A stretch of 64,000 nucleotides of DNA from a virus (taxonomy: Duplodnaviria > Heunggongvirae > Uroviricota > Caudoviricetes): IMG/VR virus record IMGVR_UViG_3300018065_000012, one strand, 5' to 3'. Shown here one piece after another: positions 3,601 to 45,212 of this stretch; within the stretch, counting starts at the first letter, position 1, and the number at the start of each line of letters is the position of its first letter. The position numbers and the translations under genes were made by a program. Under the pieces are notes generated by a model, which worked only from the letters and a program-made list of their open reading frames with translations, had not been told where the DNA came from and made no database searches.

Positions 3601-6600
3601 TGTGATCGAGACCACTCAGGCGCGAATAAAAGGCTTGAAAGATATGCCGGAGTTTGATTTTGACGTGTCAATGCTTGAAGCGTCTGAGAAAGCGTTCAAT
3701 GAGTTTGAAAAAGCAAAAGAAAAAATGGCTGATTTAGCCAAAGCTGAAAAAGAAGCTGCTGATTTCAATGCAGAAATTGGGAGAAGTGTATTGGAAGAAT
3801 TTGGTCATCGTAATACAATGACAGAAAAGGAAAAAGCCGGTTATAAAGAATTGATGAAAGCGCAGGCAGAAGTAAGAAAGTTTGCAGAAGGTGGTTTTAA
3901 GATAGCAAAAGAAAGCTACGAACAGCAACAAAAAGCGCTCGTGGTTCGCGCTAAACAATTGGGTGATGCAAACGATATATTAGAGTGGGAATCCTCTTTG
4001 AATGGGGTTGAAGCAGAAGCAGCAAAATGGATGAAAAAACGCCTTGAGGAAATGAAAAAACAACAAGACATCGTCAGCGAAGAAGCGCAGGGACTTCAAC
4101 AACTTGTGAACCGGATGCAAAAGATCAAAGCGCTTCAGGAAGAAAGAAATATTGGATTAAAAGCGCAAGAAAAAACTTTAGAAGGGGTTCAAAAACGCTT
4201 GCGAAGGTTTGTTGGCGTTCTCAAACTTGGCGCGACGTTGATTGATGAGAGTGGCGTGGTACAATCGATGGAGCGTTCTATTGCTACTTTATCAAAAGAA
4301 AGAGAACTTGCAGGGTTGATGGGGGTCAATGCAGAGCTTTCAGGAAAAGAAATTTTGAAAACAGGGGAAAAATATTCTAAACAACTCACAATCGCTAAGG
4401 GAAATTTAGAGTCTTTGAAAAAATTGGCAGAAGGCGGTGCCAAAGCTGCTAACGTGATGAAAAAAGTCGGAGAACAGTTTGCGCTCATTGATGAAACGAT
4501 TTCAAAAAGATTCAACATAGAAGCAATGGCCCCAAGGTTAAAAAAGGCATTTGGAAAGGATAAGGCAAAAGGTTTTGAAAAATTGTTGCTTGATCAAGCG
4601 GAAGCAGTTAAAAAAGCGTTTGAAAAATTTGAAGAGAAGAGGCTTGCAAAAGTTGGGAGAGAAAAACTAAAGAAGTTTGGACAAAACGTTGTTGACGCAA
4701 AAAAGGAATTGGACAAAAGTCTTGCAGAAGTTTCAGCAGCTGCTCCTGAAGTGCCTATTGACGATATTAAAGGCGCATTTGATATTATGATTTTGACTAC
4801 GCAAGCTTTTTCTGGAGGCATTCAAGAGACGGCTAAAAAAATTAAAAAACGAATTGCTGAGTTAAACTTGGACATGGCTGTCCTTCCGCGAATGCTTGAG
4901 GCGCAGCGGCGTGCAATTGCTGATAGTATTCCTCAACAAGCGGCAAGGAATGTTTTGGACACGGCTGCTGCAATGGGCGATCTTGCTTCTGAAATGATGG
5001 ATTCTCGGACGGCAGCAATAGCGTATGCAAGATCACAAGAAGCGATCTCAAGAGGTCATGAAGATTTAGTAGATCAACTCAAGGAACAAGAAAAAGTTGT
5101 TAAAGCTGTTTTTGAAGGAATGGTATTAGCGGCGAAAGGAGACCCAGCAAAACTTTCACGAATACGTTTACAATATGAGAGTGAAATGGCTTCGCTTGCA
5201 AAAGAGCGTTTAGAAGCTGAAAGACATGTCCTAAGCGCTTCGATGGACGCTTTAGATCGTCGGCTGAAAGCAGACATGGCTGGATTGGAAATCAGAAAAG
5301 AAGAACTTGATATTCAACAAGACCTTGCGAATACGCTTGGTTGGAGCGTTGGCCAAATCTTTACAATCCAAATGGAACAACTGGGAGCTGCTAAACAACA
5401 ACGTGACATACTTTTGGAAGCGTGGAAAGACGCGGAAGCAGCGACAGGAGTTACAGAAAGAACAGAACAATTACGTTTGAAATATGTTAGAGCGGCAGCT
5501 GACGTTCAAAAGAAGGCGTTGGGCGCACAACGTGACGCCTATGATAAGTTGCTTGATAAAGCGTTTGGCGCAATCCGTTCTGCGCGTGGGGCGCGTCGGC
5601 AGTTGATGACCAAAGCGCAAATCTTTGGAACGGGGTTTGTTCAAAACGTAGCTTCGGGTTTAGTCACTGGCGGTGGGGCAATGACGGTTGCAGAGCGTCA
5701 AGCACGTCTTGCTGGAGTGGGCGGTGGCCCAAGAGGGGGTCGTGGCGGTGGCGCGGCCCCAACAAAACCAGAAGACAAACAAATCAAAGCGGCTGATACA
5801 AACGTTGACGCTTCAAAACGAATGCATGATGCAGCGGAAATAATGTGGGAAGCAACAAGTGGAAATCGCAACACAATGCGCGATTTTTCAGGGGTGATGA
5901 GGAATCAAACTTTCCGCGCGGGAGCAGGTCCAACGCGGCACCCGGTGAATGCAATGGTCGCAGGAGGGGCAACGGGGCGCGCAGCGGTCCCTATGGCGGG
6001 AAAACCACAAATGGTAATGCCAGTTTTGACTTCGGAGGAAAAACAGCATTTTGAGTCTGCAAAACGATTTTATCGTGATGCGGTTAAAGAAGGCAGAACT
6101 CAAAAAGACATTTTGGATTCAACAAGAGCAATTCTGAGTGGTGGTTCTGATGAAGACAAAAAATCGGCAGATAAAATTATTACTGCTCTTCAGGTTGAAG
6201 CGGGGAAAGGGCGCTTACCAAAAGCGCCAAAACTTAATCCAAAAGAAAAACAAGATTTTGAAAGTGCAAAACGGTTTTATACAGATGCGAAAAAAGAGGG
6301 GCGGACACAAAAAGACATTTTTGGAGCAATTAGAACTATTTTGTCAACTGGTGAAAAAGGCAATAAAGAATCTGCTGACAGAATTGTTACTCTCCTCAAG
6401 GAAGAAACAGGAGAGAAAAAAGCAGTTACAAAAGCAGTTGAAACAACCGTCGATTCGTCGGCAAAAAGAGGGCTTGGAAAAAGAGGAATCAGAGCGCCAA
6501 TCGCAGGCGTGGGCGCTGGCAAAATTCCACCTGCGCTTCAAAACTTTCTTGCGCCAATTACTTCCATGGCAGATGGTGCCGGAATGCCCGGTTTTGCAGG

Positions 6601-7075
6601 ATTAGATTTAGCAGGTGGTCTTTCTGGTGCTGTTGGCGGGGTACAAGGAATGCTTGGAGGGGCAGTTGCTGCTACTCAAGGAAATCTTGGCGGTTTGTTT
6701 GGAGGTATGCAAGCTGCATTGACTGGTGCATTGACTCCAAAAGTCGGATTAGGGGGCAGGCGCAGAGGTGGAGGCGCACGTCGGCCAGCTGCTGCAAGAA
6801 GACCTGCGCCGTTCCAAAAGGTTGTACCAGAAGCAACAGGGGCAACTGCTGCCACTGCTGCGACAGGTGGCGCAGGTGGCGCAGGGGGAGGAACCGCGAC
6901 AGCCCCGATGCAGAAAGTTCCGATTCAACTCAGCATTAGTTCTGATGGAAAAATTGATATTAGACCGTCTGTTGAAAAAATTGTTTTCGATATGGTTCCG
7001 AAGTTAGTGGCTTCAACAGAGTTTTCTCGTGCTATGAATTCAAACGGTTATCCAAATAAGTATCAACCAACTTAA
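635..7075 (+). CDS. Tail tape measure protein (2146 aa)
   Basis: Very long ORF with extensive coiled-coil (E/K/A/L-rich) segments, Gly/Ala-rich hydrophobic blocks (aa ~620-700 and ~1960-2090) and an internal tandem duplication. It follows a chaperone-like ORF and precedes the tail tip genes. Confidence 0.9.
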   Translation: MPFNIKSLEQQWENLDSKTVDKLISHIDKLSGEVAKAKAKYKDLNNVIKNETDPTKVKQLAIELSEVADAINEGNNAIKQHKANELLKSFESLTDSASDAAGAIGKIKKELGTKEWNEYSRAVGMSGNQLEKEKKRYDALHGDLEKLRKKLLGLVDATKTKGKSDKKTLDNLNKEIKETKRSVDQKKKEISVYEDIAKASKGANKERRSAVEFMRSMGAGPKTEDWARLAKIVDQTKVMKMKEEFEATRKELEAGGKQLIALEFEIEGATDPKEVKRLNDEFDELLDKVQALEETQLGRGTLVAAASDFEKGAEKVTVLGKASEDAKREVDGLGGGLGENATGAIAFGLAIAYAGKQLSDFGTRLLDAQKKWAKYNVQTAIAARTIPDFKGGSQGLDDLRSRLRLTSDEAIRFQDVLKSGSVTGVVSIEQLVSAATKLEEAFGEDPTDRLRTYVELLQQIPTLETDLNITASLDDQAAAWFALAEQGKVQQVIEMQAAGLAGAEEAEMPEGSAAEVEALKTQRDMATALESIEKSLSEYIPNSLSYFTTASGALLQTGATIWSLFVMSKTIKLLLDKIGMTEKISGNKLKDIERDTTKIDVNTDQVESKLDQIKNAKVSPVGGAAAPGGFGRQMLTMQRGTLGGAAGGAVGGAVLAAIETGFNDQLTVHQKAMTAVTGAVGGGIGAALGGPMGAAIGAQIGTSIAGSIDWDAIFGTAAFERSKQAFEEEIIAIEKHTSAIIEATKMQRSALELQRVLGFLKSAVESPIVNLARLNKTVADLTFENLEMGLGASADFSAAMEQGETAITREFSQMKRQFSLARDMIMNNSNLEGKQRQAALASLHKVELEAAKKYAQGLLNLVGRFEDIPAVLRSELQLGIKQAMLDLKIDIGTDVMGDATDDFSAMLADVTNALAESVPEVTKSLRRGAEIIEATTEKFTVGDFNKDMNAVVRGLKGNHKDLVNQFKKTLSKETGFYQVREENAEALKNVIETTQARIKGLKDMPEFDFDVSMLEASEKAFNEFEKAKEKMADLAKAEKEAADFNAEIGRSVLEEFGHRNTMTEKEKAGYKELMKAQAEVRKFAEGGFKIAKESYEQQQKALVVRAKQLGDANDILEWESSLNGVEAEAAKWMKKRLEEMKKQQDIVSEEAQGLQQLVNRMQKIKALQEERNIGLKAQEKTLEGVQKRLRRFVGVLKLGATLIDESGVVQSMERSIATLSKERELAGLMGVNAELSGKEILKTGEKYSKQLTIAKGNLESLKKLAEGGAKAANVMKKVGEQFALIDETISKRFNIEAMAPRLKKAFGKDKAKGFEKLLLDQAEAVKKAFEKFEEKRLAKVGREKLKKFGQNVVDAKKELDKSLAEVSAAAPEVPIDDIKGAFDIMILTTQAFSGGIQETAKKIKKRIAELNLDMAVLPRMLEAQRRAIADSIPQQAARNVLDTAAAMGDLASEMMDSRTAAIAYARSQEAISRGHEDLVDQLKEQEKVVKAVFEGMVLAAKGDPAKLSRIRLQYESEMASLAKERLEAERHVLSASMDALDRRLKADMAGLEIRKEELDIQQDLANTLGWSVGQIFTIQMEQLGAAKQQRDILLEAWKDAEAATGVTERTEQLRLKYVRAAADVQKKALGAQRDAYDKLLDKAFGAIRSARGARRQLMTKAQIFGTGFVQNVASGLVTGGGAMTVAERQARLAGVGGGPRGGRGGGAAPTKPEDKQIKAADTNVDASKRMHDAAEIMWEATSGNRNTMRDFSGVMRNQTFRAGAGPTRHPVNAMVAGGATGRAAVPMAGKPQMVMPVLTSEEKQHFESAKRFYRDAVKEGRTQKDILDSTRAILSGGSDEDKKSADKIITALQVEAGKGRLPKAPKLNPKEKQDFESAKRFYTDAKKEGRTQKDIFGAIRTILSTGEKGNKESADRIVTLLKEETGEKKAVTKAVETTVDSSAKRGLGKRGIRAPIAGVGAGKIPPALQNFLAPITSMADGAGMPGFAGLDLAGGLSGAVGGVQGMLGGAVAATQGNLGGLFGGMQAALTGALTPKVGLGGRRRGGGARRPAAARRPAPFQKVVPEATGATAATAATGGAGGAGGGTATAPMQKVPIQLSISSDGKIDIRPSVEKIVFDMVPKLVASTEFSRAMNSNGYPNKYQPT
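6038..6424 (+). repeat. In-frame tandem duplication (~69 aa x2) inside the tape measure gene
   Basis: Two peptide units, EKQHFESAKRFYRDAVKEGRTQKDILDSTRAIL... and EKQDFESAKRFYTDAKKEGRTQKDIFGAIRTIL..., with roughly 70% nucleotide identity by eye. Confidence 0.7.
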
Positions 7076-16738: not shown

Positions 16739-18460
16739 ATGTCTTTTGAAACCATGTCTATTGAGCGTCATCTTCTGAAATTGTTGCTTACGGATATTAT
16801 GGTCACGCGGCCTTTTATCCTGAATGTAAAAGAGATTTGGTTTTTCGGTTACAGGAAAATCATCTTCAAAATGGCCTTGGAAATGTTCCGAGGCTCTGGA
16901 ACAATTCTTACGCAAGACTTGTTCGAAGCTGAAATTGATAAACTTTATCCCGGTACGACCAAAAAAGAAATGCGGGAAAAGCTTGTTACTGAATGGACGC
17001 TGATCAAACAATGCGACGTACAAGAAGAAGTCAAAGCATTGATTGAAAAGCTTGAAGAAAAGGAATGCATCGGTAGCGTCAGTTTGATTTGCGAAGAAAC
17101 ACTTGGAAGGATTCAAAAAGGCGACATCAAAGGTGCCGTCCATCTTTTGAAAAAAGAGTCGATTCAACTAAATATTGAAAGTCAAACGGACCAACCTATG
17201 GTTCAAGTGACTGAAGTTAAGGATATTGATCAACGGATTCATGATCAAAAAGCAAACCCCGCTAAATATGGCGGAATCAAAACTGGTTTTCAAACGTTTG
17301 ATAAACTCACGGGTGGTTTATTTCCTGCGGAAATGACTTTGATCGCAGCGTTATCAGGCGTCGGTAAGTCAACGATTTTGAAACAGATTGGGTACAATAT
17401 TGTCATTGGAAATCAGACAGCGAAAAACCCGTATGATCGGTATCCCGGTAAAAACGTCTTACACATAACAAACGAAGAGCACCGTGATCAGGTCCGTTTG
17501 AAGTATCATGCATTGTTTTCCAATATTGACTATTTCCGTTTCAAAAATGCAACCATTGACCCCGCTGGATTGAAGCAATGGAAAGCGATCATGAAAGAAT
17601 TGGAACGTGATTGCTACGGACGGTTGTTTATTAAAGATATTGGACAACATTCAACCGTTGCGGAAATTCATAGGGCTTACGCAGAGTTGGAGCAGATTGG
17701 TTTCAAAATTCACGTGATTATTCTTGACTACATGGATCACATGTCGCCAATGCAAAAAGCGTTTAGTGAAAATGATGAACAAGCAAAAGTGGCAAAAGAT
17801 TGCAAGGGGATGTGCGTTGAATTCAATCTTCCTTTGGTTACAGCTACTCAAGCTGCAACAAGTGTTGCTAAAAAAGAAGAAAAAGGGCACCGATTCGGGC
17901 GGCAAGACGTGTATGGTTCAAAGCGTCGAGTTCACGCAAGTAACACGTTTATTGGAATCATGCAAAAGCGTTTTGATGACACGCAGATTGCGAACAAAGA
18001 TGGAAGCGGTGGCGATAGAGAGGATATTGACGCTTGTGATAGGCTTTTGCTTGCGGAAGTTTGTAAGAACCGAGACAACAGGAATTTTGTCTTCAAAATT
18101 CGGCATTGCGTAAAAACAGGTCGCGTAGTACAAGAGGATTGGAAAGGCGACGATGATACTGGGAAAACTGGGCCTATCAGTGCCGACAAAGTTAAGCAAG
18201 AACTTGAGAAAGCGTACGAAGAAGGCAGTTTGAAAATAACGGATGAAGAAAAATCCGTCAAAAAACCCGATGAAGAAAAGCAATCGGAAGAAGTTCAAAA
18301 ACGGCCCAAAACGGTTGATCAACCACCACCTGAAGAGAAACCTTCAGAAAAGCCTGAAGAGTTAAACAAAACACCCTCAAACGGGAGCGAGACGACATCA
18401 AAAGGTCTCTTTAACCTTGTTAAATCCATCCGTGACAAACGTAAGAAAAAAGAAGAATGA
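16739..18460 (+). CDS. DnaB-like replicative helicase (RecA-fold ATPase) with K/E-rich C-terminal tail
   Basis: Walker A AALSGVGKST and Walker B-like IILDYMDH. The N-terminal region resembles the DnaB N-domain. The gene sits between the SNF2 helicase and the initiator or primase genes. Confidence 0.7.
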   Translation: MSFETMSIERHLLKLLLTDIMVTRPFILNVKEIWFFGYRKIIFKMALEMFRGSGTILTQDLFEAEIDKLYPGTTKKEMREKLVTEWTLIKQCDVQEEVKALIEKLEEKECIGSVSLICEETLGRIQKGDIKGAVHLLKKESIQLNIESQTDQPMVQVTEVKDIDQRIHDQKANPAKYGGIKTGFQTFDKLTGGLFPAEMTLIAALSGVGKSTILKQIGYNIVIGNQTAKNPYDRYPGKNVLHITNEEHRDQVRLKYHALFSNIDYFRFKNATIDPAGLKQWKAIMKELERDCYGRLFIKDIGQHSTVAEIHRAYAELEQIGFKIHVIILDYMDHMSPMQKAFSENDEQAKVAKDCKGMCVEFNLPLVTATQAATSVAKKEEKGHRFGRQDVYGSKRRVHASNTFIGIMQKRFDDTQIANKDGSGGDREDIDACDRLLLAEVCKNRDNRNFVFKIRHCVKTGRVVQEDWKGDDDTGKTGPISADKVKQELEKAYEEGSLKITDEEKSVKKPDEEKQSEEVQKRPKTVDQPPPEEKPSEKPEELNKTPSNGSETTSKGLFNLVKSIRDKRKKKEE

Positions 18461-19263
18461 TTCCTGAATACATCAGCATTGCTTTTCCGCACTTCAAAGG
18501 AAAAGAATTGCAAATCATTTACGCCATAAGCAAGCTTATGGAAAATGGTTGTTGCAGTCTTCCTGTGCCGGATATTGCTTACAAAGCTGGAGTGAGGCGA
18601 AAAACAGCAACAACATTGATCAAAAATCTTGAAATTTTGAAAGTCCTCGTTGTCGACAGGATTCCCGGAAAAGCTCCTGTGATTTGTTTCGGGGATGCGC
18701 AAAGTATTAAACAGCAATGCGATGGACATATCAACGACTTACTTGAAAAACGCCGCAATCAAACAAAAATCGCACGAGAAGTCAAGGTAGGGTCGTTCAA
18801 CAACCTGAGTCGTTCAACAACCGGGGTCGTTCAACGACCTGACCCTCCCTTAATTATAGATAAAGAGAATAAAGAAGTAGATAAGAAAGAAAAGAAAGAA
18901 GAAAAGAGAAGAAGAGGAAGAGTAAAAGAAAAGAATGGAAAACCTTCAAAACAACAAAAATCCTCCTCTTTTTCTGCTGCTTCTCAAACACCGTCAGTTT
19001 CAGAACAATCCATGTGCGAAGCAGTTTTTGAGATTTATTCGCAACAAGATTGGTCTGTTCAAAAAACATGGCATCCAAGGTTTAGCAAAAAGGAAAAAAT
19101 CCGTCGTCATTGTCAAATCCTTTACGAGCAGGATTGCGCCGACGAATATTTCAGTTGGATTCACTTCAAACTCGTACAGATTGAAGAAGAGACAGGAAAA
19201 AAATACAGTCGTTATTTCGCCACGACGTTGGCTGAGGCTTGGTTTAATGATTTTTTTGATTAA
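18457..19263 (+). CDS. Putative replication initiator with winged-helix region (268 aa). The gene body contains iterons and a purine-rich tract.
   Basis: HTH-like segment PVPDIAYKAGVRRKTATTLIKNLEIL. A K/E-rich linker is encoded by the purine tract. The arrangement is analogous to ori-within-O in lambda, which is inference. Confidence 0.45.
   Translation: MIPEYISIAFPHFKGKELQIIYAISKLMENGCCSLPVPDIAYKAGVRRKTATTLIKNLEILKVLVVDRIPGKAPVICFGDAQSIKQQCDGHINDLLEKRRNQTKIAREVKVGSFNNLSRSTTGVVQRPDPPLIIDKENKEVDKKEKKEEKRRRGRVKEKNGKPSKQQKSSSFSAASQTPSVSEQSMCEAVFEIYSQQDWSVQKTWHPRFSKKEKIRRHCQILYEQDCADEYFSWIHFKLVQIEEETGKKYSRYFATTLAEAWFNDFFD
18791..18844 (+). repeat. Three tandem 15-17-bp iterons (GGTCGTTCAAC(A/G)ACC) at 17-bp spacing
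   Basis: Copies: ggtcgttcaacaacctg, gtcgttcaacaaccgg and ggtcgttcaacgacctgacc. Each is a near-palindrome, and copy 3 is a perfect GGTCGTT.c.AACGACC dyad. Confidence 0.6.
18857..18940 (+). other. Roughly 85-nt purine-rich, A-rich tract immediately 3' of the iterons; candidate DNA unwinding element
   Basis: The + strand is about 90% A+G (agataaagagaataaagaagtagataagaaagaaaagaaagaagaaaagagaagaagaggaagagtaaaagaaaagaatgg). Confidence 0.5.
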
Positions 19264-19297: not shown

Positions 19298-19349
19298 TAT
19301 AAAAGGTCTTGTGTTTTGTGTGCCGCAATTTTTGCAAGGAGGGTTTGGG

Positions 19350-20372
19350 ATGAATTCAGCGCTTAAAAAAGCAATGAGGCAAAATAGCAATTCTTCTAAC
19401 AAGTCAAACAGTCACGTCTTGATACGCCACGTTAGCGTCGGAGACAGCTTTTCAGGAGTTTATTTCGTTCAAGACGCGTTTGAACGTGTTGCCCGGAACG
19501 GCAACATCTACAGCGATTGGACGTTGCGTGACCGTTCTGGAGAGTCGTTTGTGCGGCATTGGGGTCCGACAAATGGGATGAAACGCAATAATTGGATTGA
19601 AATTATCGCAACAGTTGAAGAGTATAGGGGAAAGCTTCAAATCATTGCGCAAGAAATTAAAGAAGCAGACGTTCCTTCTGAAGCGCAGATGAATGAGAAT
19701 TATCTAATTCAAAGCGAATCCAAAGAGCAAGATTCAGAAGCGTTTGCTTTGTACCGTGATCGTGTTGATAAAATTTGCGACGAAATTGACGATCAAACTT
19801 GTAGGTTGATTTTGGACTCTGTTTTTTCGGACGCGGTTGAAGCTCACTTCAAAAAAGCACCAGCAAGCGATAAGCCGTTTTACGGAATGGATGGTGGCTT
19901 GTTGAAGCATACGATAAAAACGGCTTACGCGGTTGCGGGGTTTTCCAAACAGTACGGATTTTCTTCGAAAGAAAGTTGTCTTGCTGTAACTGCTGCATTG
20001 CTTCATCGCGTTGGTGCGTTGGACGCTTTCAGAATCGAAGGTTGTCAACCAGCAATGACCGTTTTTGGAAAGCTTTATGGTATTGTGGAATTAAGCTTAC
20101 GGCACGTGATAAAAGCGGCTGAGTTGGTACAAAGCAAGGAAGGCTTCAAAAGCGAAACCGCACAACGTGTGATTCATGCGATAAAAGCTCAAGAAGGGCA
20201 AGCGATTCTTCCAATGACGAAAGAGGCGATTCTTTTATCAGAAGCCGTGAACATGGATATCAAGCTTGTCAATGCGATCGAGTTTATTGACAACGACTTG
20301 AATTCGGACGATGAATTCACGGCATTTGATCCAATCAGCAAGCGCCAATTCTTCAAAGGCAGCGACGCGTGA
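19350..20372 (+). CDS. OB-fold plus HD-domain putative nuclease or phosphohydrolase (YhaM-like)
   Basis: ATG at 19350 has a perfect SD aaggagg 7 nt upstream. The N-terminal OB-like segment reads VGDSFSGVYFVQDAFERVARNGNIYSDWTLRDRSGESFVRHWGP, and the central region contains conserved His and Asp residues (HTIKTAYAV...LLHRVGALDAF). Confidence 0.45.
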   Translation: MNSALKKAMRQNSNSSNKSNSHVLIRHVSVGDSFSGVYFVQDAFERVARNGNIYSDWTLRDRSGESFVRHWGPTNGMKRNNWIEIIATVEEYRGKLQIIAQEIKEADVPSEAQMNENYLIQSESKEQDSEAFALYRDRVDKICDEIDDQTCRLILDSVFSDAVEAHFKKAPASDKPFYGMDGGLLKHTIKTAYAVAGFSKQYGFSSKESCLAVTAALLHRVGALDAFRIEGCQPAMTVFGKLYGIVELSLRHVIKAAELVQSKEGFKSETAQRVIHAIKAQEGQAILPMTKEAILLSEAVNMDIKLVNAIEFIDNDLNSDDEFTAFDPISKRQFFKGSDA

Positions 20373-20470: not shown

Positions 20471-21538
20471 TTGGAAAGCATTCGCGACAAGCTTTCGTTT
20501 GGTGATATTTCTTGGCTCATGCCCAAGATAGACGTTCAGCTTGTTTTGGAGCGGCTCAACGTTCGGTTGCTTCCTAATCGCATGGGAAATCAAATCTACG
20601 GGTGGTGTCCTGATCATTATATCCACGTTAAAAGGAATCCGAGCCATCCGAAATGGACGATTAACGTCGAAACGGGCCAGACGATGTGTTTTACGGAGGG
20701 AAGAGGAAGTAATCTGGTTTGGATCGTTTCAAGGTTGAGAAAGTGCTCTCCCAAAGAAGCCGTCGATTGGATGCTGGGAGATAGCAAAGGGATTTCTAAC
20801 ATGGAAATTGCCAGCTTGAAAAAGCAATTCAAAAAGTTGCGGAGAAAGAAGGCGGCAAGCAAAGGGAAAGCTACCAACCAAGCGGTGGAGAGCGTCAAAC
20901 GGTGGTTGAGAACGGAGACGATGGTGCAAAGTGGATATGAGTATTTTATGCGACCTCCGGGGAAAAAGCCCACGTTGATCGAGAAAGAAACTGTTGACCG
21001 CTATCGTTGCGTGCAATTACGTTCTGGGTATTACGCCAACCGGGTTGTTATTCCGTTCTTCTCGAAGAAGACGCTAATCGGTTTTGAGGCCGTTGATGTT
21101 CTCGGAAAGAAAGAATGGCTTCGACGCCATCCGACGCTTGAAGAGAACCAATATAAGAAGGTTCTCTACTCAAAAGGGTTCAAACGTAGCGAGTATCTTT
21201 TTGGATTGGATGAAATTCAGAGTCAAGAAATAGTCGCCCTGACCGAAGGCGCACGTGAAGTCATGAAATTACGGCAATTGGGATATCCGGCGGTTGCAAT
21301 TTTAGGCGCAAGCGTCAGCCAGAAGCAAATTATGCTTTTGGCAGAAGCCAACCCCAAAAGCTTAATTTTGCTATTCGACGGTGATGATGCGGGTTACGAA
21401 ATTCAGCGCAAGGTTTTCAAGCAAATGAGTGAGTTTTTTGAAACGCATAAAGGGACGGTTCGGCGTGGTTACGACCCCAAAACGCTACCGCCCGAAGAGG
21501 TCAAAAAATTATTTGGAAAGTTTGGATTTTTCTCTTGA
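20471..21538 (+). CDS. dnaG: DnaG-type DNA primase (zinc-binding domain plus TOPRIM)
   Basis: Zn-ribbon CPDHY...HPKW...CFTEGRGSNL. TOPRIM residues in ALTEGAREVMKL...LLFDGDDAG. TTG start at 20471, with an alternative ATG at 20519. Confidence 0.75.
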   Translation: MESIRDKLSFGDISWLMPKIDVQLVLERLNVRLLPNRMGNQIYGWCPDHYIHVKRNPSHPKWTINVETGQTMCFTEGRGSNLVWIVSRLRKCSPKEAVDWMLGDSKGISNMEIASLKKQFKKLRRKKAASKGKATNQAVESVKRWLRTETMVQSGYEYFMRPPGKKPTLIEKETVDRYRCVQLRSGYYANRVVIPFFSKKTLIGFEAVDVLGKKEWLRRHPTLEENQYKKVLYSKGFKRSEYLFGLDEIQSQEIVALTEGAREVMKLRQLGYPAVAILGASVSQKQIMLLAEANPKSLILLFDGDDAGYEIQRKVFKQMSEFFETHKGTVRRGYDPKTLPPEEVKKLFGKFGFFS

Positions 21539-21562
21539 CTTCGAGAGAAAACACGCTATAAT
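21535..21562 (+). promoter_or_regulatory. Near-consensus sigma-70-type promoter (TTGACT, 16 nt spacer, TATAAT) upstream of the phage sigma factor gene
   Basis: TTGACT at 21535-21540 and TATAAT at 21557-21562. Followed by an ~80-nt GU-rich leader (gtgtgttctatgttttgtgttttgcgttgtgtgg). Confidence 0.55.
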
Positions 21563-21646: not shown

Positions 21647-22327
21647 ATGTCTGAAGTAATCACTTCTGAACGTAACTTCAAACAGGTTTTGAAAGAGGAC
21701 GAGATTTGTGATAGCCCATATACTCGTGAAGGGCTTGCCGTGCTCATTGCGGAAGGCGAAGCAAACGAGTTTGAGAAACAGCTTTTCCACGACTCCATTG
21801 TCCGCGCCATTTACACCATCGTTTTTCGCTACGGCGAATGCGATACGCGCGTGCCGGTGGAAGAGCTTGCGAACGACGCAGAATTGGCGTTGTGGAAGAA
21901 CCTGCCTTTCTTCAAAAAGGAAAAAGGCGTCAAGTTTATCACGTGGATGTGGCGTGTGGTTCGGAATCATGTGTTCAATCACCGCAAGCGGGTGACCCGT
22001 TATAGAACGAATCAGAAAATTACGACCAACATGTCTTCAGAGGAAAGCGAGTTTATCACGACTCGCGCTTGCGACGAAAGTCTTTCAAACGCAGACAAGT
22101 CGTGGCAGATGAAAAACGCCATGCAGTTGCTTTTTGATGCTTACCCGGAAAAGCAGAAAATGCTGCTCGCTCTTTTTGGCGATCCGTTTTCTGAAAACTT
22201 TTCAGGAAAGAAGCCGAACTTTGTCCGCGTGGCGAAAAAGTTGAAAACGAAAATGAACGATGTTCGGCGCTTTTGCAATCACGTTGCGTATCCGTTCTTG
22301 AAAAAGCACTTGGACGATCTGTTATAG
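21647..22327 (+). CDS. Phage-encoded RNA polymerase sigma factor (sigma-70 family, regions 2 and 4)
   Basis: KGVKFITWMWRVVRNHVFNHRKR matches sigma-70 region 2.3/2.4 (cf. YKFSTYATWWIRQAITR). The C-terminal region is HTH-like (region 4). Confidence 0.75.
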   Translation: MSEVITSERNFKQVLKEDEICDSPYTREGLAVLIAEGEANEFEKQLFHDSIVRAIYTIVFRYGECDTRVPVEELANDAELALWKNLPFFKKEKGVKFITWMWRVVRNHVFNHRKRVTRYRTNQKITTNMSSEESEFITTRACDESLSNADKSWQMKNAMQLLFDAYPEKQKMLLALFGDPFSENFSGKKPNFVRVAKKLKTKMNDVRRFCNHVAYPFLKKHLDDLL

Positions 22328-28267: not shown

Positions 28268-29431
28268 ATGGCTAAGGACAAGGATAAAAAGCGTGATAAA
28301 AAGCGCAGAGAACGCATCAAAAAACTTAAAGGCATCTGTGATAGTATCAACGGTGGTGATTTTGGGGGTGATAACAAAGACGCTGTTTTGTTCTTTGGCG
28401 ACGAAGATATTGAATCTGGAATTGAGTGGCTCCCCACGGGCGCAAAGACGTTGGATTGGGCTTTGGGCGGTGGTTGGCCTATGGGCCGCGTTTGTGCAGT
28501 ATACGGACCCGAGAGCGGTGGGAAATCGACCCTGTGTCTTCATGCAATTGCGGAGTTTCAAAAGAAATATACAGAGGATGAAGTCGCGATTGTTGATACT
28601 GAGTTCAGCTTTGACGTGGACTATGCAAAGAACCTTGGCGTAGATGTCGAGTTGCTTATGATTCACCAACCAGAGTCGGGCAATCAGGCGATGAACGTAA
28701 TTGATGAATTGATCGATAAAGGCACACGTCTGATTATTGTCGATAGTGTTGCAGCAATGACAACCGAAGCCGAATTGGAAGGTGATTATGGGGCTGCTCA
28801 TGTCGCAACACAAGCACGGTTGATGTCGCAAAGTTTGAAACGATTGGTTGGAAAAGTAAACAGGTCAAAAAGTTTGATTTTATTTACAAATCAGGTGCGA
28901 GAAAAGATTGGAGTCAAATGGGGGAAGAAAACGACAGAACCGGGCGGTCGTGCTTTGAAGTTTTACTCTTCTTGCCGCGTTGAGATTGTCGCAATTGGGA
29001 AAGACAAAGAAGGCGAAGAAGTAGTTTCAAACCGCATCAAGGCGACAGTAACAAAAAACAAAGTTGCGCCACCATTCCGCGTTGCCCAATTTGTAATAAC
29101 GTTTGGACACGGGATTGATCAAATCGCTGCAATTCTTGACGATGCTATTAACAAGAAGATTGTTGTTAAAAAGGGAGCGTGGTTCAGCCTTGGAAAAGGC
29201 GGGAAACCGCTTGGTCAAGGGCGAGGCAAGGTGCTTGACTTGATGCGTGCAGATGAAAACATTTTGAAAGAAATAGTAGAAAAGGCCGCAGCTACAGAAG
29301 CCCCAAAAGAAAAGACAGAAGAAACTGATTCAGAGCAGCCAGAGAAAAAAGCCCGGAAGCTTCCTACAGTCCCTTTTGATGATGAAAGTAATGATGATGA
29401 AGGAGAAGTCACCGTGGAGCCAGTTGAATGA
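28268..29431 (+). CDS. recA: RecA recombinase (bacterial RecA-like)
   Basis: GPESGGKSTL (cf. GPESSGKTTL), IIVDSVAAM (cf. IVVDSVAAL), GGRALKFYSS (cf. GGNALKFYAS), and a Lys-rich N-terminal extension. Confidence 0.9.
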   Translation: MAKDKDKKRDKKRRERIKKLKGICDSINGGDFGGDNKDAVLFFGDEDIESGIEWLPTGAKTLDWALGGGWPMGRVCAVYGPESGGKSTLCLHAIAEFQKKYTEDEVAIVDTEFSFDVDYAKNLGVDVELLMIHQPESGNQAMNVIDELIDKGTRLIIVDSVAAMTTEAELEGDYGAAHVATQARLMSQSLKRLVGKVNRSKSLILFTNQVREKIGVKWGKKTTEPGGRALKFYSSCRVEIVAIGKDKEGEEVVSNRIKATVTKNKVAPPFRVAQFVITFGHGIDQIAAILDDAINKKIVVKKGAWFSLGKGGKPLGQGRGKVLDLMRADENILKEIVEKAAATEAPKEKTEETDSEQPEKKARKLPTVPFDDESNDDEGEVTVEPVE

Positions 29432-30318
29432 ATCTACTTTTGATTGATGGAAATAATCTTGCCTTTCGAGTTCATTGGACGCACAAAAAACTAACATCAA
29501 AAGGCGTCCCAGTTTCTTTGCTCTATGGATTTTTCAGAAGCTTGGTTGCTTTGCGGAAAAAGTTTCCAAACTATTTTCCTGTTGTAGCTTGGGATGGCGG
29601 ATATGATCGGCGGTTAGCTGAATCAAAAATAGCAGTTGAAGAAGGTTTGATCCCTTCCGAATACAAGGCCAATCGAAAACGGGAACCAGACGAAGCACTG
29701 CCGCCGGATATTCAATGTATGTTTGAACAGCTGCCCGTGCTGAAGGAAGGTTTGAAATTTGCACGAGTAATGCAGGTTACGAGGAAAGGCGTTGAAGCCG
29801 ATGATATTATTTATACGTACGCAAAATACAATGATGAAAACGGCGGACTGAATGTTATTGTGACTTCTGATCAAGATTACTATCAAGTGCTTTCTGAAAA
29901 CACTCACGTCTATGACGCAATGAAAACTAATTATTGGACGCGCAAGGTTTTCATTGAAAACTTTGGATTTGAACCAGCGCTTTGGGTTGACGTAGGGGCG
30001 CTTGCTGGCGACAGTTCTGATAACATTCACGGAGTGCCCGGCGTTGGGGAAAAGTGGGCTGTAAAGTTTGTGAAGGAATATGGAGATGTTGATTGCGTCT
30101 TAAGTGGTTTGAGTTGCAAAGAGAAGCGCAAGAAAAAAGAACAGGCCGTTTTGGACAACGAAAAACGGTTGCGCGTTGCTCGGTCGTTGAAGAAAATGGA
30201 TAAGATTGACGCGTTACCGGGTTTGAAATGTGCGCCACGGAAAGCTGAGCCGTTGCTTCAATGGTTTGATCAATTCAGGTTTGAAACGTTGAAGCCTGAT
30301 GCGTGGAGATTACTATGA
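29428..30318 (+). CDS. 5'-3' exonuclease / flap endonuclease (Pol I 5' nuclease family)
   Basis: LLIDGNNLAFRVHW, VAWDGG, EYKANR, EADDIIY, VTSDQDYYQV, and H3TH GVPGVGEKWAVKFVKEYG. Confidence 0.85.
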   Translation: MNLLLIDGNNLAFRVHWTHKKLTSKGVPVSLLYGFFRSLVALRKKFPNYFPVVAWDGGYDRRLAESKIAVEEGLIPSEYKANRKREPDEALPPDIQCMFEQLPVLKEGLKFARVMQVTRKGVEADDIIYTYAKYNDENGGLNVIVTSDQDYYQVLSENTHVYDAMKTNYWTRKVFIENFGFEPALWVDVGALAGDSSDNIHGVPGVGEKWAVKFVKEYGDVDCVLSGLSCKEKRKKKEQAVLDNEKRLRVARSLKKMDKIDALPGLKCAPRKAEPLLQWFDQFRFETLKPDAWRLL

Positions 30319-30866
30319 CGGATGTTCGTTTAGGTATCATCGGGTCAGCAGGAACGGGTAAGTCAGGGCTTGGTTTGAGCGTTGCAAAAAAGTTGGATAT
30401 TCAATTTCTTGCAGCAAAAGACATTACACGCCCTATTCTTGAGAAAAAAGGTTATGATTGGTCCAGTGAAATTTTTGTCGAAAAATTCTTAGCTTTGGAA
30501 GTATGTCAAAAGGAAATCCTTGCAAAGACAGTAGAGACACAAAGCGAGTATTCGTCGTTTGTTACAGATAGAACAAGTATCGACCTTGCAGCATACGCAA
30601 TTCTTGAATTGCAAAAAGAAGTCGAGATAGTAGACGAGATAATTAACGCATGTCGTTCTCACGCAAATACTTACACACATTTGATTTTTTGTCCGTGGGG
30701 GATTGTACCAATTGAAGACAATAAAGTAAGGACTATAAATCCGTGGTATCAGTTTGCAGTACATAGCGTTATGATGGGAATCTTGATGGAATGGGACGTC
30801 CCTTTCAAGATTGTAAGCGGGACAGGGACCAGCCGCATCGATGATGTTTTGAGTTACGTCTCTTAA
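30315..30866 (+). CDS. P-loop NTPase, (d)NMP kinase-like
   Basis: Walker A GIIGSAGTGKSG. SD ggag 7 nt upstream of the ATG at 30315. Confidence 0.5.
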   Translation: MTDVRLGIIGSAGTGKSGLGLSVAKKLDIQFLAAKDITRPILEKKGYDWSSEIFVEKFLALEVCQKEILAKTVETQSEYSSFVTDRTSIDLAAYAILELQKEVEIVDEIINACRSHANTYTHLIFCPWGIVPIEDNKVRTINPWYQFAVHSVMMGILMEWDVPFKIVSGTGTSRIDDVLSYVS

Positions 30867-30962
30867 CTTAATACAATAATTTTTTTATATTTGCCTTTTT
30901 ATAGAGACATTCTGTAAAAGGGTTTTTTTATGTATTCGACGAACGCTAAAGGAGATTGAGAA

Positions 30963-32247: not shown

Positions 32248-33663
32248 ATGGAAAAGAATCTTTGGGAACGTAAAGGTATCATCGGCGGTCATGAAATCAA
32301 GCCTGATGACAATATTGATTCTGCCAATAAGGAGAATATGAAAATGGCAAAGGACAAGAAAGACTTAAAGCTTGATCCGAATTTTGGAGACGAATCGCAG
32401 GAGCAAAATATGCCAAAGAGCGAAGAAAAACCAACGGAGGAAATTGTAGAAGCGCCAGCAGCAGGACTGTTTGTTCCAAATATTCCAATGCCTGTAACGG
32501 CAGAGGAAAGCAAGGAAATAATTAAGGACCAGTGCGAAGTAGCGTTCAAGATTGCTTTTGTTGGTGCAGGTCAAGCTGGCGCGAGGATGGTTGAAGCGTT
32601 CTACAAACTTGGTTATCGCCGCGTTTGTGCTGTAAACACAACCAGTCAAGACCTTGTTGCAATTGATATCCCAGATGAAAACAAGTTTGTTATGGACATT
32701 GGGGAAGGCGGCGCAGGCAAGGAACCAGAGAAGGGCGAACAGGCAGTCAAAAAGCATTATGAGAACGTTTATGATCTGATGCGTCGGAGTTTTGGAAAAG
32801 ACTTCGAACGGATTATTGTTTGTATCGGCGCTGGGGGAGGAACGGGTAGTGGATCAATTGAAACATTGATCGATATTGCTCACGACATTGCAGAGTCTTT
32901 CAAACTGGAAGGCGGACCGGAACAGGTACCGGCTGTTGGCGCGTTGGTTTCAATGCCGATGTCCAATGAGAGTCAGAAAGTAAACGCTAACGCTTCAAAA
33001 GTTCTTGAGGTTCTTTTTGGACGTGTTGGAAAAGACAAAGGTGGAAGATTGTCTCAAAGGACGATGTCGCCATTGATAGTTGTCGACAATGACAGAATCA
33101 GCAAACTATATCCGGGGTTGCCAGTTACGCAGTTTTGGAGCGTCGCAAATCAAAGCATCAGTGGGCTATTCCACTTGTTTAACAACATTGCGGCTGCGAA
33201 AGGCGAAAATACAATTGCGACGTTTGACCGTGCAGATTTCGCAGATGTCCTCAAGAGTGGCGTAATTACATTTGGAGCAACACCATTGATCAAATGGCAG
33301 AACGAAACGGATATCAGTTTTGCAATCAGAGAGAATTTGAAGCATAACATTCTTGTTGCTGATATTGATTTAGGCTCTGCGGCTGTTGCAGCAGGCGTTG
33401 TAATTGGCAAGGACAAAATTTTGAATTCTGTCCCGCAAGATTATTTGAACCATGGATTTGAAATGCTTGGACGGATCATGAAAACAAATAGCGTTGTCCA
33501 TCGTGGAATCTATAAGTTGGGAGAAGCGATGGATAACGTAAAAGAACAGCCGGATTTAGTCGTTTACACAGCATTTGGAGAACTCGGAAAGCCAGACGCA
33601 AGAATGGAAGAAATTCAACGTCTTGGCGCAGTCGATCAACAAAACAGAATGCGTTTGAGATGA
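32248..33663 (+). CDS. Tubulin/FtsZ-family GTPase (PhuZ/TubZ-like)
   Basis: Glycine-rich loop FVGAGQAGARM and the tubulin signature IGAGGGTGSGS (GGGTGSG). An alternative start with a strong SD is at 32344 (aaggagaatATGaaaATG). Confidence 0.75.
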   Translation: MEKNLWERKGIIGGHEIKPDDNIDSANKENMKMAKDKKDLKLDPNFGDESQEQNMPKSEEKPTEEIVEAPAAGLFVPNIPMPVTAEESKEIIKDQCEVAFKIAFVGAGQAGARMVEAFYKLGYRRVCAVNTTSQDLVAIDIPDENKFVMDIGEGGAGKEPEKGEQAVKKHYENVYDLMRRSFGKDFERIIVCIGAGGGTGSGSIETLIDIAHDIAESFKLEGGPEQVPAVGALVSMPMSNESQKVNANASKVLEVLFGRVGKDKGGRLSQRTMSPLIVVDNDRISKLYPGLPVTQFWSVANQSISGLFHLFNNIAAAKGENTIATFDRADFADVLKSGVITFGATPLIKWQNETDISFAIRENLKHNILVADIDLGSAAVAAGVVIGKDKILNSVPQDYLNHGFEMLGRIMKTNSVVHRGIYKLGEAMDNVKEQPDLVVYTAFGELGKPDARMEEIQRLGAVDQQNRMRLR

Positions 33664-38310: not shown

Positions 38311-39276
38311 ATGATCCGTGGTTACGATGAGCGCACCGGACACACTTTTACATTCCGTGATAAAAAACCTGTTTATGAAGGGCGGCAAAAAAACCTTGAA
38401 GACAAACAGCCATGTCCTTGGTTTGAAGCAGAAATGCTTGCAACGCGGATGACGTGTACTTTTCCTTGTGAACCACTGTACGTTTTCCTTTCGGATGAGT
38501 GTTACAAAGTTTTTCATTGGTCTGGAAAATACGTTTACGAAAAGGCCACCCCACCAAAAAACTTGGAGTATGTTGCTTTTGTTAAAAAGCCAAAGCCTGA
38601 CGTTTTGGATCGCTATCCAAACGCAAAAGCTTATGCGTTGAACATCGGCGACGCTCATGATGCTCTTGGTTTTTTGTTCTACAAGGTTTTGCGCAAGCAT
38701 CCCACAACTGTTCCAAAACATTATTGGTTTCTCAAACCATTTGAACATCGAAATCCGTATGGTTTCGGATATGAACGTTTGTTGCAAGGAGATGCAGCCG
38801 GGAAAATTGCTCACTGTTGCGCTACCGGAACGCCAGCATTGAACCGGAGATATTCTGTTGTCAGGGACAATGGATTTGATGGGAATTTTTTACTTCCTGA
38901 ATATGCAGGGAAAGACACGATTTGTTTGGTTGAAGCGCAGAACGTTGAAACACTTTTACCACGGCTGTCTATTTCTTGGCGATATGCGGCTATGTGTAGC
39001 CCAATGAGAATTGATAATGAAGAACCTTTTGAGAAGGCAACAGGAATTGATTCAAAACGCATAACGCTTCGGGTCGTCAGCGCCAACGATAGCGAAGATA
39101 TAACGGCATTTATGCAGTTTTGGAACATAATCACAGGTGGGAAATTGGTTGCTTTTTCTCATAAACAATACCTTCCTAAATTGTATAATAGGATGGCGCT
39201 GTTTCACTATTTTGATTATTGCGTAATTGAGGGAAAAAATGCAATTGGCAATGTTATACGAGAAGCATGGTGTTGA
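38311..39276 (+). CDS. Hypothetical protein (321 aa)
   Basis: Protein-like composition. Its 3' end contains promoter copy 5 for dnaE. Confidence 0.45.
   Translation: MIRGYDERTGHTFTFRDKKPVYEGRQKNLEDKQPCPWFEAEMLATRMTCTFPCEPLYVFLSDECYKVFHWSGKYVYEKATPPKNLEYVAFVKKPKPDVLDRYPNAKAYALNIGDAHDALGFLFYKVLRKHPTTVPKHYWFLKPFEHRNPYGFGYERLLQGDAAGKIAHCCATGTPALNRRYSVVRDNGFDGNFLLPEYAGKDTICLVEAQNVETLLPRLSISWRYAAMCSPMRIDNEEPFEKATGIDSKRITLRVVSANDSEDITAFMQFWNIITGGKLVAFSHKQYLPKLYNRMALFHYFDYCVIEGKNAIGNVIREAWC
39180..39189 (+). promoter_or_regulatory. Promoter-like motif ATTGTATAAT, copy 5 (inside the 3' end of the upstream CDS, upstream of dnaE)
   Basis: Sequence cctaaATTGTATAATagg, 50 nt upstream of the dnaE ATG. 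SD gaggga at 39229-39234. Confidence 0.35.
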
Positions 39277-45176: not shown

Positions 45177-45212
45177 ATATTGTGAAACAAGGCTGATTTG
45201 ACGGAGAGAAAA

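What the first reader, a model, noticed from the sequence alone, without database searches (positions are those of the whole stretch)
18791..18940. Candidate replication origin embedded in the initiator-like gene: three palindromic iterons plus a purine-rich tract
Inside ORF 18457..19263 there are three tandem copies of GGTCGTTCAAC(A/G)ACC at a strict 17-bp register. Each has internal dyad symmetry, and copy 3 is the perfect palindrome GGTCGTT-c-AACGACC. These are followed immediately by an ~85-nt tract that is about 90% purine on the + strand and A-rich, which simultaneously encodes a K/E-rich linker. This matches the architecture of lambda ori within the O gene (iterons followed by an easily melted region, located in the initiator's interdomain linker). 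The gene lies between the DnaB-like helicase and the primase. Nothing in the feature table otherwise explains this repeat structure.
Basis: partly seen in the sequence, partly recalled or inferred. Interest (0 to 1): 0.75.

Follow-up and report, generated by a model that had tools for sequence, protein, structure and literature searches.

The report
Lambda-style replication origin inside initiator gene
Inside a replication-initiator-like gene of an uncultivated ~340-kb phage sit three 17-bp palindromic repeats followed by the most easily melted DNA of the whole 64-kb window, a layout conserved in every relative found, so it is very probably a lambda-type replication origin: a well-known kind of element in a new phage lineage.

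Summary
Three 17-bp units lie at 18791, 18808 and 18825. They form the best tandem repeat of the window, and the motif occurs nowhere else in it. They are followed by a tract that is 92% purine, holds a 40-nt homopurine run, and is the least stable 80-mer of the 64 kb.

The 17-bp period means the repeat is translated in three frames (FNN, STT, VVQ), so it is a DNA feature, not a peptide repeat.

All six relatives (24-45% identity) carry 3-6 tandem repeats of 17, 18, 19 or 33/45 bp at the same mid-gene position. Each array abuts the least stable, or in one locus second least stable, DNA of its locus. The repeat sequence changes completely in the distant relatives.

In the four closest genes, third-codon-position identity is 0.67 in the iteron codons against 0.37 elsewhere (p = 5e-5).

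The protein has an N-terminal winged helix, a disordered linker that holds the element, and a C-terminal helical domain. Five of seven family members match PHROG "replication initiation O-like" profiles. The start codon overlaps the stop codon of a DnaB-like helicase gene.

The element is a new member of a known kind. DNA binding and origin firing remain untested.

The parts
18457..19263 (+). Gene for a 268-aa initiator-like protein. It has an N-terminal winged helix (aa 1-78) plus a long helix (81-112), a disordered linker (110-176) and a C-terminal helical domain (181-267).
   Evidence: ORF. AF2 model (pLDDT above 90 in both domains, below 50 in the linker). Winged-helix fold matches. Relatives match HTH_36 and DnaD_N and PHROG 'replication initiation O-like' families. 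Six homologues found, E 1e-16 to 1e-54.
18791..18805 (.). Iteron 1, GGTCGTTCAACAACC (imperfect dyad).
18808..18822 (.). Iteron 2, AGTCGTTCAACAACC (imperfect dyad).
18825..18839 (.). Iteron 3, GGTCGTTCAACGACC (perfect 7-1-7 palindrome).
18843..18945 (.). Candidate DNA-unwinding element. It is an A/purine-rich, low-stability tract that includes the 40-nt homopurine run 18883-18922. It also encodes the K/E-rich linker.
   Evidence: Most purine-rich 85-mer of the window. Least stable 80-mer of the 64 kb. Longest homopurine run in the window.
16739..18460 (+). DnaB-like replicative helicase gene. Its stop codon overlaps the initiator gene's start codon (ATGA at 18457-18460).
   Evidence: DnaB_C 3.9e-21 and phrog_19 1.8e-43. 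The overlap is seen, and is conserved in L005, L008, L011 and L012.
19311..20372 (+). Conserved downstream gene with an HD-domain match and, in the L008 orthologue, an OB-fold trace. Its role is unknown and it is probably part of the module.
   Evidence: HD 5e-4. Faint OB-fold hit in the L008 orthologue. Conserved directly downstream in L005, L008, L010 and L012.
20471..21538 (+). Toprim/DnaG-type primase gene.
   Evidence: Toprim_2 1.2e-7 and phrog_47 1.1e-24.

Best explanation
The element is a lambda-type, iteron-plus-unwinding-element replication origin embedded in the linker-coding part of the phage's own initiator gene.

Proposed mechanism (inferred):
1. Dimers of the N-terminal winged-helix domain bind the three dyad-symmetric 15-bp sites, which are spaced 17 bp apart, and form a small nucleoprotein complex.
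2. On negatively supercoiled DNA (the phage encodes its own gyrase), this complex melts the adjacent A/purine-rich tract, the least stable DNA of the region.
3. The C-terminal domain recruits the phage DnaB-like helicase, whose gene is translationally coupled to the initiator gene.
4. The phage primase and DnaE-type polymerase then follow.

Shown here: the repeats, their exceptional statistics, selection at the DNA level, conservation of the layout across the family, the protein's domain layout and the family's link to replication initiators.

Inferred: that this protein binds these repeats, that the tract melts, and that replication starts here.
For: 1. The repeat and the tract are each the extreme of the 64-kb window, and they are adjacent.
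2. The 17-bp period is not a multiple of 3. The same DNA is read as FNN, STT and VVQ, so the repeat is not a peptide repeat.
3. All six relatives have tandem repeats at the same gene position. L005, L008 and L009 have 3 x 17 bp with a shared TGTTSAACA core. L010 has 5-6 x 19 bp, L012 has 3 x 18 bp with GGTTCCC-N4-GGGAACC, and L011 has three copies 33 and 45 bp apart. The repeat sequence is unrelated in the distant members, as expected for a site that co-evolves with its binding protein.
4. In the four closest genes, third-codon-position identity in the iteron codons is 0.667 against 0.374 elsewhere. This is the maximum of the gene, with permutation p = 5e-5. Where the amino acid differs, the codons there still share 50% of their bases, against 32% elsewhere.
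5. Between L005 and L008 the best blastn match is the iteron stretch, and between L008 and the window it is the iteron plus purine stretch.
6. The least stable 80-mer of the locus abuts the repeats in the window, L005, L008, L009, L010 and L011, and the second least stable does in L012. The amino acids encoded there differ (K/E, N/I/D or N/I/S), so the shared property is low duplex stability.
7. The motif occurs only in this one array in the window, L005 and L008.
8. The protein has a winged helix, a disordered linker holding the element, and a C-terminal domain. Five of seven members match phrog_678 'replication initiation O-like' (2.5e-6), and all the named PHROG hits are replication initiators or DnaD-like loaders. 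HTH_36 matches 5 of 7 members and DnaD_N 3 of 7.
9. The gene order SNF2, DnaB, this gene, OB/HD gene, primase is conserved, and the gene overlaps the end of the helicase gene.
10. The same window encodes Pol III alpha, GyrB, GyrA, ligase and RecA.
11. Two experimentally proven precedents have the same layout: lambda ori in the middle of O (PMC7466680) and SPP1 oriL embedded in gene 38 (PMC5737612).
Against: 1. There is no experimental or read-depth evidence that replication starts here.
2. GC skew is positive and monotonic over the whole window, with no switch at 18.8 kb. All genes are on one strand, so this is uninformative rather than contrary.
3. The window protein itself does not reach significance against any Pfam or PHROG model. 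It does not align significantly with lambda O or SPP1 G38P. The initiator assignment therefore rests on its homologues and on context.
4. Low-complexity linkers rich in K, E and N are AT-rich for coding reasons, so part of the low stability could be a by-product.
5. Only three sites are present, and in two relatives one of the three is degenerate.
6. The comparative sample is small, at seven clusters.
7. A 340-kb phage may have several origins or may rely mostly on recombination-dependent replication; it encodes RecA.
Confidence: 0.66

Rival explanations
1. The array is an operator for the winged-helix protein, or for another regulator. Binding inside the gene would autoregulate or block read-through transcription of the replication operon. 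The array would have no origin function, and the AT-rich tract would be only a by-product of a K/E/N-rich linker.
For: Dyad-symmetric sites are typical operators, and MarR-like winged-helix repressors are the best fold matches. All genes are co-transcribed through the site. Low-complexity linkers are AT-rich by codon usage.
Against: The named PHROG matches of the family are all replication initiators or DnaD-like loaders, not repressors. Operators inside the regulator's own coding sequence are unusual. The adjoining tract is the least stable DNA of up to 64 kb in 6 of 7 loci, even where the encoded amino acids differ. The gene is coupled to the helicase gene.
Confidence: 0.13
2. The array is a centromere-like site, comparable to tubC or parS. 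The winged-helix protein would bind it as an adaptor for the phage's tubulin-like protein and so position or segregate phage DNA.
For: A tubulin/FtsZ-family gene lies at 32248-33663. Known TubR adaptors are small winged-helix proteins that bind tandem repeats (from general knowledge, not tested here). A centromere-binding winged-helix protein (AspA) appears among the fold matches.
Against: The tubulin gene is 13 kb away and is not adjacent to this gene. The family's profile matches are to replication initiators. A centromere model does not explain the conserved unwinding-prone tract. The gene sits between the helicase and primase genes and overlaps the helicase gene.
Confidence: 0.05
3. The palindromes act as hairpins in single-stranded nucleic acid. 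They could be an mRNA structure that pauses translation between the two domains, or a single-stranded DNA signal for primase or primosome assembly.
For: As RNA, the array folds better than shuffles (z = -2.4, 3 of 200 shuffles as good). Dyad symmetry is kept through sequence turnover in 5 of 7 loci.
Against: The units of L010 and L011 have little or no dyad symmetry but keep the tandem register. The palindromes have a 1-nt centre, which suits a protein dimer on duplex DNA better than a hairpin loop. The strict 17-19-bp register and the adjacent low-stability tract are not explained. The z-score is modest and follows from any palindrome array.
Confidence: 0.05
4. The array is a chance or slippage-generated repeat, or a peptide repeat, with no function at the DNA level.
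For: Short tandem duplications arise readily in disordered linkers.
Against: The period is not a multiple of 3 in 5 of 7 loci, so the units are read in three frames. Repeats are present at the same position in 7 of 7 clusters down to 24% protein identity. Third-position conservation gives p = 5e-5. None of 100 shuffles reaches the observed motif count.
Confidence: 0.02

Closest known systems
Bacteriophage lambda ori, located within gene O (lambdoid O-type initiators)
   Same: Tandem inverted-repeat iterons sit in the middle of the initiator's own gene. They are followed on the 3' side, on the coding strand, by an A/purine-rich, AT-rich tract that also encodes a K/E-rich linker: TKEKRK in lambda, and KKEKKEEKRRR here. 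The relative position is nearly the same, at residues ~117-145 of 299 in lambda O and 112-128 of 268 here (PMC7466680). The N-terminal domain is a DNA-binding winged helix and the C-terminal domain would be the recruiting domain. Relatives match PHROG 'replication initiation O-like' families.
   Different: There are three iterons of 15 bp at a strict 17-bp spacing, against four of 18-19 bp at 20-24 bp. No significant sequence similarity to lambda O was found (hhalign probability 0.14; no Phage_rep_O Pfam hit). The helicase is phage-encoded and its gene lies immediately upstream, whereas lambda hijacks host DnaB through P; no P-like loader was identified. The genome is ~338 kb and carries its own Pol III alpha and gyrase.
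Bacillus phage SPP1 oriL, embedded in gene 38 (replisome organizer G38P)
   Same: The origin is embedded in the initiator gene and is composed of repeats bound by the gene's own product plus an adjacent AT-rich unwinding element. The initiator lacks an AAA+ domain. The phage encodes its own DnaB-type helicase (PMC5737612).
   Different: There is no significant similarity to G38P (hhalign probability 0.19). SPP1 has a separate loader (G39P) and a second binding site (oriR). Here no second copy of the motif occurs in 64 kb.
DnaD-like / HTH_36 winged-helix replication proteins (Pfam PF21984, PF13730; PDB 2vn2)
   Same: The N-terminal winged helix followed by a long helix resembles DnaD_N. Three of seven members match DnaD_N and five of seven match HTH_36. 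The family profile gives a weak hit to the DnaD N-terminal domain 2vn2 (E = 0.2).

Membership tests
Iteron-type (lambda/SPP1-like) phage replication origin | Several direct repeats of about 15-22 bp in a regular array, in excess of chance | tested here: met
   There are three units at 17-bp spacing. TRF score is 81, the best of the window, and 0 of 100 shuffles reach the motif count.
Iteron-type (lambda/SPP1-like) phage replication origin | An adjacent AT-rich DNA-unwinding element | tested here: met
   The 80-mer at 18851 is the least stable of the 64 kb. The same adjacency is seen in 7 of 7 loci.
Iteron-type (lambda/SPP1-like) phage replication origin | The element is conserved in position across relatives while its sequence co-varies with the initiator | tested here: met
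   Repeats lie at the same linker position in all six relatives. The core is shared by the four closest and replaced in the three distant ones. Third-position identity is 0.67 against 0.37.
Iteron-type (lambda/SPP1-like) phage replication origin | Specific binding of the cognate initiator to the repeats | not testable with these tools
   This needs EMSA or footprinting. Only a winged-helix fold and dyad-symmetric sites are shown.
Iteron-type (lambda/SPP1-like) phage replication origin | Replication actually initiates at the site | not testable with these tools
   No read-depth data or complete contig was available. GC skew within the window shows no switch and is uninformative.
Lambda O protein family (Pfam Phage_rep_O; PHROG 'replication initiation O-like') | Significant sequence match of the window protein to the family profile, or to lambda O itself | tested here: not met
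   The window protein has no Pfam or PHROG hit. hhalign of the family against lambda O gives probability 0.14.
Lambda O protein family (Pfam Phage_rep_O; PHROG 'replication initiation O-like') | Homologues of the window protein match the family profiles (transitive homology) | tested here: met
   Five of seven members match phrog_678 (2.5e-6), four match phrog_391 and three match phrog_345, all named 'replication initiation O-like'. The members are tied to the window protein at E 1e-16 to 1e-54.
Lambda O protein family (Pfam Phage_rep_O; PHROG 'replication initiation O-like') | Two-domain layout: N-terminal DNA-binding domain, flexible linker holding the origin, C-terminal domain | tested here: met
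   The AF2 model gives a winged helix at 1-78, disorder at 110-176 and a helical domain at 181-267. The iterons encode aa 112-128.
SPP1 G38P replisome-organizer family | Sequence similarity to G38P | tested here: not met
   hhalign probability is 0.19.
DnaD_N / HTH_36 winged-helix domain | Match to the Pfam model | tested here: inconclusive
   Five of seven members match HTH_36 (best 1.7e-6) and three of seven match DnaD_N (2.2e-4), but the window protein itself does not. The PDB profile hit to 2vn2 has E = 0.2.

The most novel reading that the evidence does not exclude
This could be the first defined origin and initiator pair for a lineage of ~340-kb uncultivated phages that carry a bacterial-type replisome (DnaE-type Pol III alpha, gyrase, DnaB, DnaG-like primase). 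It would work as a loader-less variant of lambda-type initiation. In that variant, a previously unclassified C-terminal helical domain of the initiator hands the phage's own helicase, whose gene is translationally coupled, directly onto a homopurine unwinding element. No P-, DnaC- or G39P-like loader would be involved. The absence of a loader was not tested systematically.
Probability: 0.25. Interest if true: 0.6.

Novelty: new member of a known kind. Interest (0 to 1): 0.5.

Why it matters
Replication origins of huge phages are almost entirely unmapped, and this lineage has no cultured or GenBank relative. Its best DnaB match is 26% identical, to phage PA5oct.

The candidate is concrete and sequence-defined: 51 bp of iterons plus about 100 bp of unwinding element. 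Together with its putative initiator, it gives a directly testable handle on how such a phage starts replication, by EMSA, in-vitro unwinding, or read-depth analysis of the metagenomes that contain it.

It also annotates a protein family that currently has no name. It is a clean example of a DNA element overriding codon drift inside a gene: the same DNA is read in three frames, and third codon positions are more conserved than the protein. The principle itself, an origin inside the initiator gene, is textbook.

Tried and rejected
Searches that found nothing new:
- DNA and protein searches of GenBank phages with the gene and its neighbourhood found nothing.
- IMG/VR scans with the protein and with the helicase found nothing.
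- The word-indexed protein search found only the protein itself, and with the family profile only P0007 in addition.
- The exhaustive HMMER search was what produced the six relatives.
- The metagenome scan returned only contigs identical to L005 and L008.
- The four other contigs that encode the identical protein (L001-L004) add no comparative information.

Homology and fold tests that failed:
- Profile comparison with lambda O and with SPP1 G38P was not significant.
- Fold search of the full model gave only generic winged-helix matches.
- NCBIfam gave nothing useful.

Other tests:
- GC skew shows no switch in the window and is uninformative, because all genes are on one strand.
- The promoter and terminator scan shows nothing notable at the element.
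- The only other stretch as unstable as the tract (30855) is a plain AT-rich intergenic spacer without repeats.

Ideas considered and rejected: a peptide repeat (ruled out by the reading frames) and chance (ruled out by the shuffles and by conservation). An RNA hairpin, an operator and a centromere are kept as low-probability rivals.

Full report
**What is in the sequence**

Inside ORF 18457-19263 (268 aa, + strand) there are three tandem units: GGTCGTTCAACAACC (18791), aGTCGTTCAACAACC (18808) and GGTCGTTCAACGACC (18825). The spacing is exactly 17 bp. The third unit is a perfect 7-1-7 palindrome and the other two are imperfect dyads. This is the best-scoring tandem repeat of the 64-kb window (TRF score 81). 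With up to two mismatches the 14-mer occurs nowhere else in the window, and 0 of 100 dinucleotide-preserving shuffles reach the observed count.

Starting 17 bp after the last unit comes an A-rich purine tract. Positions 18856-18940 are 91.8% purine and 72.9% A+T, and this is the only 85-mer of the window above 82% purine. The tract contains a 40-nt uninterrupted homopurine run; the next longest in the window is 19 nt and the shuffle maximum is 25. By nearest-neighbour duplex energies, the 80-mer at 18851 is the least stable of all 64 kb (-88.2 kcal/mol against a mean of -107.9, sd 5.4). It ties with an ordinary AT-rich intergenic spacer at 30855 that has no repeats.

Two corrections are small: copy 2 begins with A, and a further gene lies between this gene and the primase gene.

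**It is a DNA-level element, not a peptide repeat**

Seventeen is not a multiple of three. The three copies are translated in three frames, as G-S-F-N-N, S-R-S-T-T and G-V-V-Q-R. The stretch lies in a segment that AlphaFold2 predicts to be disordered: pLDDT is below 50 for residues 110-176, between two confidently folded domains.

**Comparative evidence**

The word-indexed protein search found only the protein itself, on contigs of up to 338 kb. An exhaustive HMMER search of 1.8 billion cluster representatives found six relatives at 24-45% identity. I fetched the DNA of all six.

Wherever enough contig is available, the gene order is the same: SNF2 helicase, DnaB-like helicase, this gene, an OB/HD-domain gene, primase, then a sigma-like factor (recognisable in the window and L012), a DEAD helicase and UDG.

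Every relative carries tandem repeats at the same mid-gene position:

| Locus | Repeats | Unit |
|---|---|---|
| L005 | 3 x 17 bp | TGTTCAAyAACC, third copy degenerate |
| L008 | 3 x 17 bp | GTTGTTSAACAACC |
| L009 | 3 x 17 bp | GTGTTGAACAMC, middle copy degenerate |
| L010 | 5-6 x 19 bp | CACCCCTGCTCAAAATGAG |
| L012 | 3 x 18 bp | GGTTCCC-N4-GGGAAC |
| L011 | 3 copies, 33 and 45 bp apart | CTCGGGACAAAACCACTCT, with AAACCACTCT sub-repeats |

The four closest genomes share a TGTTSAACA core. The three distant ones have unrelated repeat sequences in the same place. That is the pattern expected of a binding site that co-evolves with its protein.

A codon-aware alignment of the four closest genes quantifies the constraint. 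The 15 aligned iteron codons have a third-position identity of 0.667, against 0.374 for the other 214 codons. This is the maximum of any window in the gene, with permutation p = 5e-5. Amino-acid identity in those codons is ordinary (0.47). Codons there whose amino acids differ still share 50% of their bases, against 32% elsewhere.

blastn points the same way. The best match between L005 and L008 is the iteron stretch, and the best match between L008 and the window is the iteron plus purine stretch.

The residues that look invariant in the protein alignment (N115, N116, T121, V125) are the translation of the iteron core. They are lost in the relatives that have other repeats.

**The unwinding tract is conserved too**

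In L005 (16.7 kb), L008 (16.8 kb), L009 and L010, the least stable 80-mer of the locus directly follows the repeats. In L012 the tract that follows the repeats is the second least stable. In L011 the least stable 80-mer directly precedes the repeats.

The encoded residues differ: K/E in the window, N/I/D in L009, and N/I/S/T in L010. The shared property is therefore low duplex stability rather than one peptide composition. Part of it may still be a by-product of low-complexity linkers.

**The protein**

The model shows an N-terminal winged helix (1-78) followed by a long helix (81-112), then the disordered linker, then a compact helical C-terminal domain (181-267). Fold searches confirm a generic winged helix of the MarR, Fur, TFE or ORC type.

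The window protein itself matches no Pfam, PHROG or NCBIfam model, but its relatives do:
- Five of seven match Pfam HTH_36 and three match DnaD_N.
- Five of seven match phrog_678 'replication initiation O-like' (best 2.5e-6).
- All the other named PHROG hits are replication-initiation proteins or DnaD-like helicase loaders.
- The family profile weakly hits the DnaD N-terminal domain structure 2vn2 (E = 0.2).

The gene's ATG overlaps the helicase gene's stop codon (ATGA). This overlap is conserved in L008, L011 and L012, and is 11 nt long in L005. It suggests coupled synthesis of helicase and initiator.

**Context**

The window is a one-strand block of replication genes from a very large uncultivated phage. 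It encodes DnaE-type Pol III alpha, GyrB, GyrA, NAD-dependent ligase, RecA, a 5'-3' exonuclease, UDG, a sigma-like factor and a tubulin-like protein. No GenBank phage is close; the best DnaB match is 26% identical.

GC skew is positive throughout and shows no switch. With all genes on one strand this says nothing either way.

**Comparison with the known**

I read lambda ori directly from J02459. Four 18-bp inverted-repeat iterons lie at gene positions 349-433 of the 900-nt O gene. They are followed by CACAAAAGACACTATTACAAAAGAAAAAAGAAAAGATTATT, which encodes TKEKRK. The order, strand asymmetry and relative position match the element studied here.

The literature confirms that the lambdoid origin consists of iterons plus an AT-rich tract in the middle of O. 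Each iteron is an imperfect inverted repeat, two iterons plus the AT-rich tract suffice for unwinding, and negative supercoiling is required (PMC7466680). SPP1 oriL is likewise embedded in gene 38, with repeats bound by G38P and an adjacent AT-rich unwinding element (PMC5737612).

The element therefore works like a lambda- or SPP1-type origin. The protein belongs, through its relatives, to the broad O-like/DnaD-like winged-helix initiators. It is not a demonstrable member of lambda O's or G38P's own families.

**Rivals**

- An operator without origin function is possible (0.13). It fits poorly with the initiator-family matches and with the conserved unwinding tract.
- A centromere for the phage tubulin (0.05) is not supported by gene adjacency.
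- A hairpin in RNA or single-stranded DNA (0.05) is compatible with the dyads and with a fold z-score of -2.4. It does not explain the non-palindromic arrays of L010 and L011, or the fixed register.
- Chance or a peptide repeat (0.02) is excluded.

**Verdict**

I am about 90% confident that this is a selected, protein-bound cis element. I am about 66% confident that it is an origin of replication, or the origin. It is a new member of a known kind, in a lineage and a protein family with no prior annotation. Interest is moderate (0.5): not surprising in principle, but it makes replication initiation in a huge uncultivated phage directly testable.

Noticed in passing
window 32248-33663 (+): A tubulin/FtsZ-family gene (Pfam Tubulin 3.3e-11, Tubulin_2 1.8e-5) in this huge phage, reminiscent of PhuZ or TubZ. 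No TubR-like gene was recognised next to it.
   Followed up: partly
window 39227-42751, 45198-49543, 50079-52058, 28268-29431, 29428-30318: The phage encodes a bacterial-type replication set: DnaE-type Pol III alpha with a PHP domain, GyrB and GyrA, an NAD-dependent ligase with BRCT, RecA and a 5'-3' exonuclease.
   Followed up: partly
window 19311-20372 (+); L005 8784-9827; L008 8838-9860; L010 1256-2212; L012 1119-2114: A ~340-aa protein with an HD-domain match, plus a faint OB-fold hit in one orthologue, is conserved directly downstream of the initiator-like gene in all loci long enough to show it (42-49% identity in L010 and L012). Its role is unknown. The OB+HD layout recalls YhaM-type nucleases (from memory, not tested).
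   Followed up: partly
window 18457-18460: The helicase gene's stop codon and the initiator gene's start codon overlap (ATGA). The same 4-nt overlap occurs in L008, L011 and L012, and an 11-nt overlap in L005. This suggests translational coupling.
   Followed up: yes
window 18907-18921 and 18961-18975: Part of the homopurine tract (AGAAGAAGAGGAAGA) is 87% complementary to a pyrimidine run 39 nt downstream (TCCTCCTCTTTTTCT, encoding SSSFS). Together with the 40-nt homopurine run, this could allow a non-B DNA structure.
   Followed up: no
L011 911-1105: In the most divergent arrangement the order is reversed. The low-stability purine-rich tract (911-990) precedes the repeats (994-1105). The repeats are spaced 33 and 45 bp apart, both multiples of 3, with 11-bp sub-repeats of AAACCACTCT.
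   Followed up: partly
window 30855-30935: An AT-rich intergenic spacer is as unstable as the candidate unwinding element (-88.3 kcal/mol per 80 bp). It has no repeats and is probably a promoter region.
   Followed up: partly
window 21647-22327 (+): A sigma-70 region-2-containing protein is encoded just after the primase gene. The best sigma-70-like promoter match of the region (11 of 12) lies at 21535-21562, upstream of it.
   Followed up: no
window 635-7075 (+): A 2146-aa ORF, not examined. The L008 relative has a large Big_2/Ig-like protein upstream of the replication block.
   Followed up: no
L005 13515-14369 and 9925-10143: Relative L005 has extra genes absent from the window: a DUF559 (endonuclease-like) gene between the DEAD helicase and UDG genes, and a 72-aa ORF before the primase gene. 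These are probably mobile insertions.
   Followed up: no
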